In this document: positions 1 to 35,640 of the stretch, piece by piece
Position numbering within the stretch: the first letter of the stretch is position 1
Layout of the letters: every line of letters begins with the position of its first letter
IMG/VR virus record: IMGVR_UViG_2740892107_000010
Span: 1-35,640 of that record
Source of the DNA: a virus
Taxonomy: Duplodnaviria; Heunggongvirae; Uroviricota; Caudoviricetes
Strand: one strand, 5' to 3'
Length of the DNA: 35,640 bases
Made by a program: the position numbers and the translations under genes
The notes under the pieces: generated by a model
The model's database searches: none
Seen by the model: the letters and a program-made list of their open reading frames with translations, nothing else
What the model was told of the DNA's origin: nothing

Positions 1-57
1 GGTATCCGTTCTGCTGAAGTGTCATGGCGTTGATTTTACGGTGACTCTTCGACAGTG

Positions 58-83
58 AAAAGAAAAAAGGCCGCAGAGCGGCC
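58..83 (-). terminator. Rho-independent terminator downstream of the int-adjacent gene
   Basis: Perfect 6-bp stem ggccgc / gcggcc with 3-nt loop (69-83), followed on the minus strand by a T-run (plus-strand A6 at 63-68). Confidence 0.5.
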
Positions 84-189
84 ATAAACACAAACAAAAA
101 TCAATAAGTTAGATAATTATCAAAGACTTACAGACACACAAAAACACAGCCAACCACAACAAATAACAGGGATGTGGTCACTTTGTGGA

Positions 190-4818: not shown

Positions 4819-4937
4819 GTAATCATCATGCACACACAAAAAAACCGCTTGCCATGCCGCAATCAGTCAGGTTACATTTCCGCTGCACCTCATAAAACGG
4901 GTGCCGGGATTTCCACCCCGCTGACAACTACAGCGCA

Positions 4938-4959
4938 CAACCGCGCCAGCGGTTTTTTT
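4938..4959 (+). terminator. Rho-independent terminator
   Basis: Stem aaccgc / gcggtt with loop gcca, followed by T7 (4952-4959), downstream of the 4267-4818 gene. Confidence 0.55.
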
Positions 4960-5138
4960 GTGCGTACTGTATCGCCACGTCTTTTTCGCACACGAATTAT
5001 GGTGGGGCGTACGGGGCCGACTTCGGTCGGGCCGGGTTCTGTAGTTGCCGGTTGTGGAAACCCTGTACGTCTCACCACCCCGAGTTTTCCACCTCTGGAT
5101 GGTGAGTTTTCAAAACTTGCAACTACAGAGGCCACACC

Positions 5139-33646: not shown

Positions 33647-34816
33647 CTAATATTGAGAAAGATAATCAGCGACTCCATCTGCAGGGTTTCGCCCACCAGT
33701 ATAAATTGTGCCTAATTCTTGAGGTGTAACATATGTTGTAGGCCAAATGGCCATATTTTTAAAATAGTTATCTATTTTTATTCTTTGAAGTTCTTTAAAG
33801 AGATAATCTTCTAAGTCATTTCTTTTTAGACAGTTAACATAATAAGCAGCCGCACTTGCTACTATATCTACAATTTGTAATTGAGGATACTCTTGTGATG
33901 AATGGAATGTCAAAGAACGAGCTTTAATTGGCAATTCAAATTTTCTTCGATCATAACCATATGCCTCCGTAATTTTTGATATATCCATAAATTTATCAAA
34001 AATATCTTTCTTCTCTGTAATAGCTTTGGAATCGTCATGCTTAATATAAAAACCATTAGGGTATAATTTACCCCATTCTACACAGTGTCTAAAGAGGCTT
34101 GGTATAGATGGATCTAATGTGCTTTTCTCAACACCTTCCAATATATCATCAATATCGCTTCTGGTAATACTAATTCTGTTTATTATATCTGTGAATATCT
34201 TATCACTTGAGCATATCTTTAACTCATCAATTACCCTGTAAAATTCATCAATTGACTCAGTCGATTGGCTTCTGATCATATTCATAAAACACTGATACAT
34301 TACCTCTGTTTTTTCCTCCCCACAGAAAGCAGGGAAACAGAAATAGTAAACATTAGACAGAGCTAGATTCTGTCCATTTATATAAAGATCTATTCCTCTA
34401 TTAGAGCACCACGTCTCGATCAAAATATCAACAATCTTTGCTGTTAGCATGTATTTTTTATCGACCAAGTATATTTTAACATTCTCTTCATTGACATATT
34501 TGCTTTCAAGAAGCCTAATGATGCCATCCTGACCAGATTTTCTACGTCTAAGAGTTTTAAAGTGGGCTTCTGTTGGAGACTTGCTTCCGGTTAGTTCTAA
34601 TGCCTTAAGCGCATCCTGTTTACTAATACTACTTGAACTTAAGGTAAAAACAGGTTGCAATGGATCGAGTAAATTTCCGCCAGTATTACCTGATTCATCA
34701 AAAAATATATCAGGCTTTATATACAACATTTTATTTATCTTTGCCGCTAAGTTTCTTTTTTTCTCATTTTCTCGCTTAATTTTATTATCTCGCCTACGTT
34801 GACTATTCTTTCCCAT
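33647..34816 (-). CDS. AT-rich 389-aa cargo protein of unknown function (DUF3800-like N-terminal motif, tentative)
   Basis: Low GC; GAGG ribosome-binding site 5 nt upstream of ATG 34816; N-terminal IFFDESGNTG motif that I recall as typical of the DUF3800 family; inserted between D and ogr on the opposite strand. Confidence 0.7.
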   Translation of the reverse strand: MGKNSQRRRDNKIKRENEKKRNLAAKINKMLYIKPDIFFDESGNTGGNLLDPLQPVFTLSSSSISKQDALKALELTGSKSPTEAHFKTLRRRKSGQDGIIRLLESKYVNEENVKIYLVDKKYMLTAKIVDILIETWCSNRGIDLYINGQNLALSNVYYFCFPAFCGEEKTEVMYQCFMNMIRSQSTESIDEFYRVIDELKICSSDKIFTDIINRISITRSDIDDILEGVEKSTLDPSIPSLFRHCVEWGKLYPNGFYIKHDDSKAITEKKDIFDKFMDISKITEAYGYDRRKFELPIKARSLTFHSSQEYPQLQIVDIVASAAAYYVNCLKRNDLEDYLFKELQRIKIDNYFKNMAIWPTTYVTPQELGTIYTGGRNPADGVADYLSQY

Positions 34817-35048: not shown

Positions 35049-35309
35049 ATGTTCCGTTGTCCGCTTTGTGGCGCATCTGCCCGTATCCGCACAAGTCGTC
35101 CGGAAAATGATTCAAACACCGTGCGGCAAAAGTATTACCAGTGTAACAACCTGGAATGCGGCGTATGCTTCTCAACACTGGAAGCCTTCCATAAATTCAC
35201 ATCAAAACACGCCTCCGCCGTTCACTCTTCAGAAGGTATCCCGTGGCATGAGCTGCCAGCTTCACACAGGGGAAACAATCAGATGAGTTTGCCTTTACCT
35301 CAGAACTAA
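35049..35309 (+). CDS. ogr: Ogr/Delta-family zinc-finger late transcription activator
   Basis: 86 aa; MFRCPLCG...QCNNLEC gives a C-x2-C-x22-C-x4-C finger like P2 Ogr; GGGAGG ribosome-binding site. Confidence 0.85.
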   Translation: MFRCPLCGASARIRTSRPENDSNTVRQKYYQCNNLECGVCFSTLEAFHKFTSKHASAVHSSEGIPWHELPASHRGNNQMSLPLPQN

Positions 35310-35499
35310 CAGGCAGAATTGCCGGATTAACAAAAAAGCGATAGATTACGCGCGGGTGCCTTTCGGCTGATGGTCGGAGGGAATACCTGAAGGCCAGATG
35401 TGGAAAGGCCCCGGAAAACATTTTTGTTTAACCGAGGCCCTAACCGTCTACCCTAAGCAAGTGATAGGTTAGCGCCTCCCCGAAAAAGGAGCAAGCGCT

Positions 35500-35640
35500 A
35501 TGTCGCAAAAATCGCTTACGGCCATCACGTTCTGCGTGACGGCAATCCTCATCATCTGGATGCTGCACGGTTCGCTGTGCGAAATACGGATGAGCTTCTG
35601 GGGAGCGGAGTTTGCGGCGTTCTTACAGTGTAAGCAGTAA
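35500..35640 (+). CDS. hok: Hok/Gef-family type I toxin (HokA-like)
   Basis: 46 aa MSQKSLTAITFCVTAILIIWMLHGSLCEIRMSFWGAEFAAFLQCKQ: single transmembrane helix followed by the SLCE[IL] and AAFL motifs of Hok proteins; AGGAG ribosome-binding site; stop is the last codon of the window. Confidence 0.7.
   Translation: MSQKSLTAITFCVTAILIIWMLHGSLCEIRMSFWGAEFAAFLQCKQ

What the first reader, a model, noticed from the sequence alone, without database searches (positions are those of the whole stretch)
35380..35640. Hok-family type I toxin locus abutting the ogr end of the prophage
The final ORF has the Hok/Gef architecture and conserved motifs, with a strong ribosome-binding site. It may be the host locus flanking attR or a prophage-borne addiction module. 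The antisense RNA and any overlapping mok-like reading frame were not resolved by eye.
Basis: partly seen in the sequence, partly recalled or inferred. Interest (0 to 1): 0.5.

Follow-up and report, generated by a model that had tools for sequence, protein, structure and literature searches.

The report
Phage-borne Hok/Sok-type toxin module
The last gene of the window is a genuine, already-annotated Hok-family membrane toxin with its antisense-RNA control region, carried by the P2-like prophage itself rather than by the host, so the finding is correct but ordinary.

Summary
Confirmed. Window 35500-35640 (+) encodes a 46-aa Hok/Gef toxin (Pfam PF01848, 29.9 bits against a cut-off of 22), with an AAGGAG ribosome-binding site 8 nt upstream. 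The 146-nt leader (35354-35499) matches the Rfam hok-leader model RF01794 (46 bits, E 5.5e-9, below gathering 59).

The window stops at the hok stop codon. An E. coli locus identical from +1 to that stop shows the missing 3' part: a fold-back element at +57..+65 and a terminator ending near +121, giving an mRNA of about 408 nt.

Across 20 relatives the 5' end pairs with this 3' element (95.5% of cells paired, four compensatory pairs). It pairs alternatively with an internal box, as in plasmid R1 hok.

A Sok-like antisense gene (about 35459 to 35396, minus strand) lies where R1 Sok lies. This rests on position and conservation only.

No conserved mok frame exists. The window has only a 24-codon upstream ORF.

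The module is phage-borne. attR lies about 260 nt beyond the hok stop, and isolated P88-like phages carry D-ogr-hok-int.

The same protein is already annotated in RefSeq (WP_000078916.1), and Hok enrichment in prophages is published. Novelty: already known. Interest is low.

The parts
35319..35347 (+). Candidate hok promoter: -35 TTGCCG (35319-35324), 17-nt spacer, -10 TAGATT (35342-35347), 6 nt before the predicted +1
   Evidence: Read from the sequence. TTGnnn and TAnAnT-like hexamers sit at a fixed distance from GGGTGCC in relatives from P2-like, lambdoid, Stx-phage and plasmid contexts, while the spacer varies. The match to consensus is weak (7 of 12). The generic promoter scan reported no site. 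This part is inferred.
35354..35499 (+). hok mRNA 5' leader (146 nt), homologous to the R1 hok leader
   Evidence: Rfam RF01794 hits 35354-35513 on the + strand at 46 bits (gathering score 59), E 5.5e-9. As a control, an R1-type locus hits the same model in the same sense at 87.2 bits, ending at the hok ATG.
35354..35366 (+). tac-like 5' element GGGUGCCUUUCGG. It pairs either with the 3' fbi element (outside the window) or with the internal ucb-like box
   Evidence: RNAalifold closes columns 1-7 and 10-13 with 364-370 and 357-360. 95.5% of cells are paired, against 28-44% when the partner is slid, and 4 pairs are compensatory. The alternative helix to columns 52-61 is 94.9% paired, with 2 compensatory pairs in the same tac columns.
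35398..35472 (+). 24-codon upstream ORF (MWKGPGKHFCLTEALTVYPKQVIG). An AAGG sits 5 nt upstream. It is in frame with hok, and its TAG stop lies just before the anti-SD. It is a possible mok substitute in this allele only
   Evidence: The ATG is kept in E. coli-type relatives, but the ORF length varies from 1 to 79 codons. Salmonella-type relatives have no start codon here. Function is not established.
35403..35412 (+). ucb-like box GAAAGGCCCC. It forms the 5' arm of the sokT hairpin in the full-length fold and pairs with tac in the 3'-truncated fold
   Evidence: MFE folds of the full-length and truncated RNA. Covariation count.
35407..35439 (+). sokT-like hairpin. Its 3' arm holds GAGG (35434-35437), the homolog of the R1 mok Shine-Dalgarno; no start codon follows it
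   Evidence: helix at columns 56-62 with 85-91, with one GC-to-AU compensatory pair. The alignment with the R1-type locus places GAGGC opposite the R1 mok SD.
35396..35459 (-). Predicted Sok-like antisense RNA (about 60 nt): a 14-nt single-stranded 5' tail, a long hairpin, then UUUCC
   Evidence: Fold of -23.2 kcal/mol, z -3.1. The ends are inferred from the promoter position and the hairpin. There are no expression data.
35466..35494 (-). Candidate sok promoter: -35 TTGCTC (35494 to 35489), 17-nt spacer, -10 TAACCT (35471 to 35466)
   Evidence: It aligns with AGGATA...GCGCAA (TATCCT / TTGCGC, 17-nt spacer) of the R1-type locus. Naming that R1 pair as the Sok promoter is from memory. The block AGGTTAGCGCCTC is the most conserved stretch of the locus, with a mean pairwise difference of 0.02-0.06. 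The hexamers are weak against consensus and the generic scan found none.
35445..35458 (+). Hypervariable patch of the leader, complementary to the predicted 5' tail of the Sok-like RNA
   Evidence: 9 of the 15 differences from the E. coli FDAARGOS_401 allele fall between 35447 and 35457. This segment has the highest divergence in the leader (0.37-0.38, against 0.02-0.13 for its neighbours).
35474..35491 (+). Anti-SD / dcb-like GCCUC (35474-35478) and hok Shine-Dalgarno AAGGAG (35486-35491), forming a local hairpin that hides the SD
   Evidence: Helix at columns 124-129 with 149-154 in the consensus structure, plus the MFE folds. In the 5' 167-nt fold GCCUC pairs instead with GAGGC at 35434-35438.
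35500..35640 (+). hok: 46-aa Hok/Gef family toxin gene. Its stop codon is the last codon of the window
   Evidence: The protein equals RefSeq WP_000078916.1, 'Hok/Gef family protein'.

Best explanation
This is a complete hok/sok-type type I toxin-antitoxin module carried as cargo by a P88-like (Xuanwuvirus, P2-like) prophage. It sits between ogr and attR.

Shown:
- The gene encodes a Hok/Gef-family peptide.
- Its leader is homologous to the R1 hok leader.
- The inferred mRNA of about 408 nt (5' and 3' ends inferred, not mapped) is predicted to close on itself through 5' GGGUGCC and 3' GGCACCC (tac/fbi-like). This helix, and an alternative helix from the 5' end to an internal box (tac/ucb-like), are both supported by compensatory changes in the same 5' columns.
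- The module lies on the phage side of attR and is present in isolated phage genomes.

Inferred mechanism, by analogy with R1 hok/sok:
1. The full-length mRNA is locked and inert.
2. 3' trimming removes the fbi element. The 5' end then pairs with GAAAGGCCCC, which opens the sokT hairpin.
3. A short unstable antisense RNA (about 35459 to 35396, minus strand) binds there and triggers decay or keeps translation off.
4. When the antisense RNA is lost, Hok is made, inserts in the inner membrane and depolarises or kills the cell.

There is no conserved mok frame. I therefore propose that the released GAGGC (35434-35438) competes with the hok SD for the anti-SD GCCUC (35474-35478). In this allele, termination of the 24-codon upstream ORF right at the anti-SD could also help unmask the SD.

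The biological role is not determined. Candidates are prophage retention, help with lysis and release, or exclusion of other phages.
For: Protein family:
- Pfam 29.9 bits against a gathering score of 22.
- PHROG 251, 80.6 bits.
- 46-aa homologs named Hok/Gef in E. coli, Shigella, Salmonella and Klebsiella.
- 43% identity to K-12 HokA and 39% over 31 aa to R1 Hok.

Leader:
- RF01794 E 5.5e-9, with the strand and extent controlled on an R1-type locus.
- Element-by-element alignment with the R1-type locus.

RNA architecture:
- The 408-nt transcript of L011 is identical to the window from 35354 to 35640. It folds at -174.5 kcal/mol, z -7.0, with a 5'-3' closing stem.
- The consensus fold of 20 relatives has the same closing stem.
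- tac/fbi is 95.5% paired with 4 compensatory pairs.
- tac/ucb is 94.9% paired with 2 compensatory pairs in the same tac columns.
- The truncated RNA refolds to tac/ucb.

Antisense RNA: tail-plus-hairpin fold. The promoter block is the most conserved segment of the locus.

Phage-borne:
- att mapping against the K-12 empty site.
- D-ogr-hok next to ihfA, serS and other sites.
- Phage records P88, Chuche and others.
- The rest of the window is 96% identical to P88-like phages.

Precedent: hokW-sokW of prophage Sp5 is a working type I TA system (PMC8621323).
Against: - There are no expression or toxicity data for this subfamily in anything I could search.
- The Rfam score is below the gathering threshold.
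- Both promoters are weak by consensus, and the generic scan reported none.
- The canonical mok frame, required for hok translation in R1 (PMC9841398), is closed in the window by TGA 35388 and TAA 35454. It is not conserved among relatives, so R1-type translational coupling cannot apply as such.
- The compensatory changes mostly separate two clades (E. coli-type and Salmonella-type). They represent few independent events.
- The GAGGC/GCCUC relay rests on invariant bases and on one of three folds. The 337-nt truncated fold keeps the SD hairpin.
- The fbi element and the terminator are not in the window. They are read from an E. coli locus that is identical over the shared part.
- Chromosomal hok loci of E. 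coli were reported not to mediate post-segregational killing (cited in the bioRxiv catalogue).
Confidence: 0.85

Rival explanations
1. The hok locus is host chromosome flanking attR, not part of the prophage.
For: It is the last feature before the host gene ihfA in lysogens. E. coli does have chromosomal hok loci, for example hokA.
Against: The K-12 btuC-ihfA intergenic region is 100 nt long, has no hok, and matches window 1-84 joined to the sequence after attR. The repeated core AAAGAAAAAAGGCCGC..AGCGGCC lies about 260 nt beyond the hok stop and after the hok terminator. The same ogr-hok pair is found at serS and at other integration sites, and inside phage genome records between ogr and int.
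Confidence: 0.02
2. The locus is an evolutionary relic. The toxin gene is intact but is never translated, because the mok coupling frame has been lost, as is thought for several chromosomal hok loci.
For: There is no canonical mok. R1 needs mok translation up to the hok SD. Chromosomal hokA, hokB and hokC did not give post-segregational killing. The upstream ORF varies from 1 to 79 codons among close relatives.
Against: All 20 relatives keep an intact 45-47-codon ORF, with 13 invariant residues in a 31-protein alignment. tac, ucb, GAGG, anti-SD, SD and fbi are all kept, with compensatory changes. The module has spread among P2-like phages, lambdoid phages, Stx phages and plasmids. About a third of complete E. 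coli genomes carry a relative of it. 42 of 45 diverse Hok homologs tested in the catalogue study were toxic. Mok-less members form a whole clade, which suggests a different control mode rather than decay.
Confidence: 0.12
3. Role variant A: the module helps the phage, speeding lysis and release on induction as hokW-sokW does for Sp5, rather than acting as an addiction system.
For: The only prophage hok/sok studied experimentally behaves this way, with a 2-fold drop in phage release when it is deleted (PMC8621323). The module is retained in free phage isolates.
Against: HokW is a 51-aa HokC/D-like peptide in a lambdoid phage, which is a different subfamily. Nothing here was tested on P2-like induction.
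Confidence: 0.3
4. Role variant B: the module is a defence or exclusion moron. Infection by another phage shuts off host transcription, the Sok-like RNA decays, and Hok kills the cell (abortive infection).
For: R1 hok/sok reduces T4 plating, as cited in PMC8621323. The module sits in a cargo region next to another variable gene slot, holding DUF3800 here and com/methyltransferase in Chuche.
Against: No PADLOC model hits Hok or the DUF3800 neighbour. [quoted passage not shown]
Confidence: 0.25

Closest known systems
hok/sok (parB) of plasmid R1, the paradigm type I toxin-antitoxin system
   Same: - Hok-family toxin.
- mRNA of about 400 nt with a long leader.
- The 5' tac element pairs with the 3' fbi element, and alternatively with an internal ucb box.
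- A sokT hairpin followed by GAGG.
- An anti-SD/SD hairpin before hok.
- An antisense gene whose -10 and -35 boxes align with the R1-type ones at the same 17-nt spacing.
   Different: - The toxin is 46 aa rather than 52 aa, and only 39% identical over 31 aa.
- The leader is 146 nt, against 173 nt in R1.
- The Rfam score is below the gathering threshold.
- No start codon follows the GAGG, and there is no conserved mok frame.
- It is carried by a temperate phage, not a plasmid.
HokA (chromosomal hokA/sokA of E. coli)
   Same: It is the nearest named Hok. The best NCBIfam model is the HokA equivalog, and identity to K-12 HokA is 43%. Both cysteines are hard-coded, so no TadA recoding is needed (for HokA).
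   Different: It scores 34 bits against a cut-off of 89, so it is not a HokA equivalog. It is 46 aa rather than 50 aa. The genomic context differs.
hokW-sokW of Stx2 prophage Sp5 (E. coli O157:H7 Sakai)
   Same: It is a prophage-borne hok/sok module. PHROG 251 labels our protein 'MokW-like host killing'. Stx phages also carry a copy of our 46-aa type, about 84% identical in nucleotide sequence.
   Different: HokW is 51 aa and starts MKQQKAM (primer YO-357), so it is of the HokC/HokD type. It belongs to a different subfamily and sits at a different position in a lambdoid genome.
46-aa 'Hok/Gef family protein' of P88-like phages and prophages (RefSeq WP_000078916.1; P88 gp52 YP_009113095.1)
   Same: The protein is identical or 98% identical, and the D-ogr-hok arrangement is the same.
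   Different: Nothing of substance. The window's leader allele differs from the commonest E. coli allele at 14 positions, and it is identical to that of strain VG38-53E1 from +1 to the stop.

Membership tests
Hok/Gef toxin family (Pfam PF01848) | Small protein that matches the family profile above its curated threshold | tested here: met
   29.9 bits against a gathering score of 22, residues 7-44 on profile positions 5-42 of 42.
Hok/Gef toxin family (Pfam PF01848) | Conserved residues of the family logo (M1, C16, T18, L30, C31, E32, E41) and a hydrophobic N-terminal segment | tested here: met
   M1, C12, T14, L26, C27, E28 and E37 are present, and residues 6-22 are hydrophobic (logo).
Hok/Gef toxin family (Pfam PF01848) | Membrane-damaging toxicity on expression | not testable with these tools
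   This needs an induction assay. 42 of 45 diverse homologs were toxic in the catalogue study, but I could not check whether this cluster was among them.
hok/sok type I TA locus (R1 paradigm) | Leader homologous to the hok leader model (Rfam RF01794) | tested here: inconclusive
   46 bits, E 5.5e-9, full model length, but below the gathering score of 59. An R1-type control scores 87.2 bits.
hok/sok type I TA locus (R1 paradigm) | Long-range tac/fbi pairing of the mRNA 5' and 3' ends | tested here: met
   Met on the locus identical to the window plus 19 relatives. The fbi itself lies 57-65 nt beyond the window end.
hok/sok type I TA locus (R1 paradigm) | Alternative tac/ucb pairing, with changes coupled to those in tac/fbi | tested here: met
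   94.9% of cells paired. Columns 10 and 11 covary both with 53/52 and with 360/359. Few independent events underlie this.
hok/sok type I TA locus (R1 paradigm) | Antisense Sok RNA gene inside the leader | tested here: inconclusive
   Promoter boxes align with the R1-type ones and are the best-conserved block. The predicted RNA has a tail plus a hairpin. There is no transcript evidence, and the generic promoter scan was negative.
hok/sok type I TA locus (R1 paradigm) | mok reading frame that starts after the sokT hairpin and is translated through the hok SD | tested here: not met
   There is no start codon after GAGG. The overlapping frame is closed by TGA 35388 and TAA 35454. No such ORF is conserved in the 20 relatives. 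Only a non-conserved 24-codon upstream ORF ends 15 nt before the SD.
hok/sok type I TA locus (R1 paradigm) | Post-segregational killing or activation on transcription arrest | not testable with these tools
   An experiment is needed.
HokA equivalog (NCBIfam NF007290) | Score at or above the equivalog cut-off | tested here: not met
   34 bits against 89.
Hok family toxin subfamily model (NCBIfam NF007279) | Score at or above the subfamily cut-off | tested here: not met
   21.6 bits against 73. The 46-aa type lies outside the R1-type subfamily model.

The most novel reading that the evidence does not exclude
The 46-aa Hok subfamily may be a naturally mok-less branch of hok/sok. In this reading, toxin translation is gated purely by a relay of mutually exclusive RNA helices: tac:fbi gives way to tac:ucb, GAGGC then captures the anti-SD, and the hok SD is freed. 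The Sok-like RNA would act by trapping GAGGC and the sokT region. The hypervariable patch opposite the Sok 5' tail (35445-35458) would be a specificity code that keeps up to nine co-resident paralogous loci from cross-talking.
Probability: 0.25. Interest if true: 0.35.

Novelty: already known. Interest (0 to 1): 0.15.

Why it matters
It matters little on its own. The protein is already named Hok/Gef in RefSeq and in phage records. PHROGs has a family for it. A 2025-26 catalogue reports Hok enrichment in prophages.

The useful outcomes are practical:
- The prophage boundary is fixed: attR lies about 260 nt past the window end.
- The hok module is shown to be phage cargo.
- The window truncates the locus at the stop codon.

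The one point of wider interest is that this common subfamily, present in about a third of complete E. coli genomes, keeps every RNA element of R1 hok except the mok frame. The field still treats mok as essential, and the recent catalogue explicitly left it unanalysed.

Tried and rejected
With an alignment, the one-genome-per-species collection gave only 6 loci, three of them in implausible taxa that are probably contamination.
- The generic promoter scan found no sigma-70 site in the locus, so the promoters rest on positional homology only.
- The 87-aa ORF overlapping hok in E. coli FDAARGOS_401 looked like mok. It was rejected: it has no SD, it starts inside the tac stem, it is closed twice in the window, and it is absent from most relatives.
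- The 24-codon upstream ORF was considered as a mok substitute. It is kept only as an allele-specific possibility, because its length is not conserved and Salmonella-type loci lack it.
- The 'MokW-like' label was checked against the hokW paper. HokW belongs to a different Hok type.
- PADLOC gave nothing for Hok or the DUF3800 neighbour.
- Literature searches for hok together with P2-like phages, ogr or hotspots found nothing specific.
- A first synonymous/nonsynonymous count was off-frame and was discarded. The corrected count of 1450 synonymous to 2537 nonsynonymous codon differences is only weakly informative.

Full report
**1. What is in the sequence**

The last ORF of the window runs from 35500 to 35640 on the + strand. 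It starts with ATG and encodes 46 aa, MSQKSLTAITFCVTAILIIWMLHGSLCEIRMSFWGAEFAAFLQCKQ. Its TAA stop is the final three bases of the window. AAGGAG (35486-35491) lies 8 nt upstream of the ATG.

Just upstream is ogr (35049-35309; Pfam Ogr_Delta, 52.5 bits). Before that is a DUF3800 gene on the minus strand (33647-34816).

**2. Is it Hok?**

Yes.
- Pfam HOK_GEF scores 29.9 bits against a gathering score of 22.
- PHROG 251 scores 80.6 bits.
- A search of 5.8 billion proteins returns 67 hits. Most of those that carry a source name are called Hok/Gef family protein, and most are exactly 46 aa. They come from E. coli, Shigella, Salmonella and Klebsiella.
- In a 31-protein alignment, 13 positions are invariant, including C27, E37, A39, A40, L42, Q43, C44 and K45; L26, E28 and F41 are nearly invariant.
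- All seven residues that a recent catalogue found conserved in more than 80% of 1264 Hok peptides are present.
- Among named Hoks the nearest is HokA: 43% identity to the K-12 protein, and the best NCBIfam model is the HokA equivalog. That model scores 34 bits against a cut-off of 89, so this is a separate 46-aa subfamily.
- R1 Hok is 39% identical over 31 residues.
- The PHROG name 'MokW-like' is only a label. HokW of prophage Sp5 is 51 aa and starts MKQQKAM.

**3. Phage or host?**

It is phage DNA.
- The window is a P88-like (Xuanwuvirus, P2-like) prophage. Positions 600-25000 match phages PhiR44_2, P88 and others at about 96% identity over 73-79% of the query.
- The first 84 bases of the window match the K-12 btuC-ihfA intergenic region. 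The K-12 sequence then continues directly into what follows attR in a lysogen.
- The repeated core is AAAGAAAAAAGGCCGC(AG/TA)AGCGGCC, the ihfA terminator. It lies at window 59-84 (attL) and at L001 5051-5077 (attR). attR is therefore 260-286 nt after the hok stop and downstream of the hok terminator.
- The same D-ogr-hok arrangement sits next to ihfA in E. coli and Salmonella, next to serS in UTI89, and at other sites.
- It lies inside phage genome records. In P88 it is 746 bases from the end of the record as deposited. In the environmental isolate Chuche the order is D, ogr, hok, com, methyltransferase, integrase.
- Close relatives of the module also occur between J and the tail-fibre gene of a lambdoid prophage, in Stx phages and on a plasmid.
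- 1750 of 5426 complete E. coli genomes have a match to the 331-nt locus, with up to 9 places per genome.

**4. The RNA part**

*Leader.* Rfam RF01794 ('sok') hits 35354-35513 on the + strand at 46 bits, E 5.5e-9, below the gathering score of 59. A control with an R1-type plasmid locus (L028) hits the same model at 87.2 bits. That hit is also on the hok-sense strand and ends at the hok ATG. The model therefore describes the hok leader, and the strand of our hit is as expected.

*Missing 3' end.* The window ends at the stop codon, so the 3' untranslated region is absent. E. coli VG38-53E1 (L011) is identical to the window from 35354 to 35640. The single difference in the 328-nt match is at 35327. 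I used L011 as the continuation. It has AAGGCACCC at +57..+65 after the stop and a terminator ending at about +121. This gives a 408-nt transcript, close to the roughly 400-nt length I recall for R1 hok mRNA (from memory, not checked here).

*Full-length fold.* The MFE is -174.5 kcal/mol, z -7.0. GGGUGCCUUUCGGCU at the 5' end is paired with the 3' segment.

*Comparative support.* I aligned 20 relatives from +1 to the fbi element (A2).
- RNAalifold closes columns 1-7 with 364-370 and columns 10-13 with 357-360. All four of the latter pairs show double-sided changes.
- 95.5% of cells are paired, against 28-44% when the partner is slid by 1-3 columns.

*Truncated fold.* When the 3' end is removed, the 5' end pairs instead with GAAAGGCCCC (35403-35412), which in the full-length fold is one arm of the sokT-like hairpin. 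This alternative helix is 94.9% paired. The same tac columns 10 and 11 that covary with the fbi side also covary with columns 53 and 52.

From my own knowledge, this coupled pattern is the signature described for the hok mRNA family by Gultyaev, Franch and Gerdes (1997). The tac/fbi and tac/ucb scheme itself is summarised in PMC9841398.

Caveat: the double changes mostly separate an E. coli-type clade from a Salmonella-type clade, so they count for few independent events.

**5. Sok**

In the alignment with the R1-type locus, AGGTTA-17 nt-GAGCAA of the window lies opposite AGGATA-17 nt-GCGCAA. On the minus strand this reads as follows:
- Window: -35 TTGCTC (35494 to 35489) and -10 TAACCT (35471 to 35466).
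- R1-type: TTGCGC and TATCCT. I recall this pair as the R1 Sok promoter, from memory.

The block AGGTTAGCGCCTC is the most conserved part of the whole locus, with a mean pairwise difference of 0.02-0.06 against 0.17-0.23 for the coding region. That fits a double constraint: promoter on one strand, anti-SD on the other.

A transcript starting near 35458 would have a 14-nt unpaired tail, a long hairpin and then UUUCC. This is the architecture I recall for Sok.

The leader segment opposite that tail (35445-35458) is the most variable part of the leader (0.37-0.38). It holds 9 of the 15 differences from the commonest E. coli allele. This would suit a specificity determinant, but that is inference.

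There are no transcript data. The generic promoter scan found no site.

**6. Mok**

In R1 the mok AUG follows the GAGG after the sokT hairpin. Its translation up to the hok SD is required for hok translation.

Here GAGG (35434-35437) is conserved, but no ATG, GTG or TTG follows it.
- The frame that overlaps hok is open for 87 codons in one E. coli allele. In the window it is closed by TGA 35388 and TAA 35454, and it is closed in most relatives.
- The window has a 24-codon upstream ORF (35398-35472) with AAGG 5 nt before the ATG. It is in frame with hok, and its TAG lies two bases before GCCUC.
- A terminating ribosome could plausibly melt the anti-SD hairpin in this allele. However, the ORF is 1 to 79 codons long in other E. 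coli-type loci, and Salmonella-type loci have no start codon at all.

The defining mok feature is therefore not met.

As a substitute I propose a relay. Once tac takes ucb, the freed GAGGC can pair with GCCUC (35474-35478) and release AAGGAG. This helix appears in the fold of the first 167 nt but not in the 337-nt truncated fold. The bases involved are invariant, so covariation cannot test it. The recent Hok catalogue states that Mok was left out because it is hard to predict.

**7. Function**

The only prophage hok/sok studied experimentally, hokW-sokW of Sp5, is a working type I TA system. It is activated on induction and doubles phage release. R1 hok/sok lowers T4 plating (cited). Chromosomal hok loci failed to give post-segregational killing.

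None of this was done on the 46-aa type, so the role stays open. I rank help with lysis and release, exclusion of other phages, and prophage retention as comparable possibilities.

**8. Verdict**

The locus is an ordinary, already-annotated member of a well-known family: RefSeq WP_000078916.1, P88 gp52, PHROG 251. Hok enrichment in prophages is published.

What is added here:
- placement on the phage side of attR;
- a map of the RNA elements;
- the fact that the window cuts off the fbi element and terminator;
- the absence of a conserved mok frame in this subfamily.

Noticed in passing
window 4885-4959 (+) and 4995-5082 (+): There are Rfam hits above gathering score for isrK (63.6 bits) and C4 antisense RNA (80.5 bits), side by side in the early region of the prophage. 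C4 RNA is, from memory, the P1/P7-type immunity RNA, which suggests an RNA-based immunity or anti-repressor control module in this P2-like phage.
   Followed up: no
window 33647-34816 (-): A 389-aa DUF3800 gene (Pfam 41.2 bits) sits between the tail gene D and ogr. It is also present in E. coli FDAARGOS_401. UTI89, P88 and Chuche have nothing there, and strain VG38-53E1 has a different gene before ogr. This is a variable cargo slot. There is no PADLOC hit.
   Followed up: partly
window 59-84; L001 5051-5077: The att core is the intrinsic terminator of ihfA. attL and attR differ by two bases in the terminator loop, so integration rebuilds the ihfA terminator with a phage-derived loop. An Rfam STnc540 hit (41.3 bits) covers this ihfA 3' region in L011 2046-2190.
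   Followed up: partly
L021 1501-1641 and 1991-2131; L022 1501-1641 and 1995-2135: Some Salmonella contigs carry two copies of the 46-aa hok module in tandem, about 490 nt apart. Each has its own leader and fbi element.
   Followed up: no
L028 (plasmid pMTY1886_IncFII) 344-559: In this R1-type locus the Hok protein is 100% identical to R1 Hok. The upstream mok-like ATG is in the same frame as hok, giving a 71-codon ORF that ends at the hok stop. In R1 as I recall it, mok is out of frame. RefSeq annotates only a truncated CDS there.
   Followed up: no
L005, L006, L009: Near-identical hok loci turn up in assemblies labelled Planococcaceae MAG, Vagococcus sp. and Xanthomonas pisi. These are probably enterobacterial contamination of those assemblies. 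L005 also has a masked run of N in the leader.
   Followed up: no
L029 3359-4301 (phage Chuche): Between hok and int, Chuche carries a com-like gene and a DNA methyltransferase that are absent from the window's prophage. This is another variable cargo slot next to attP.
   Followed up: no
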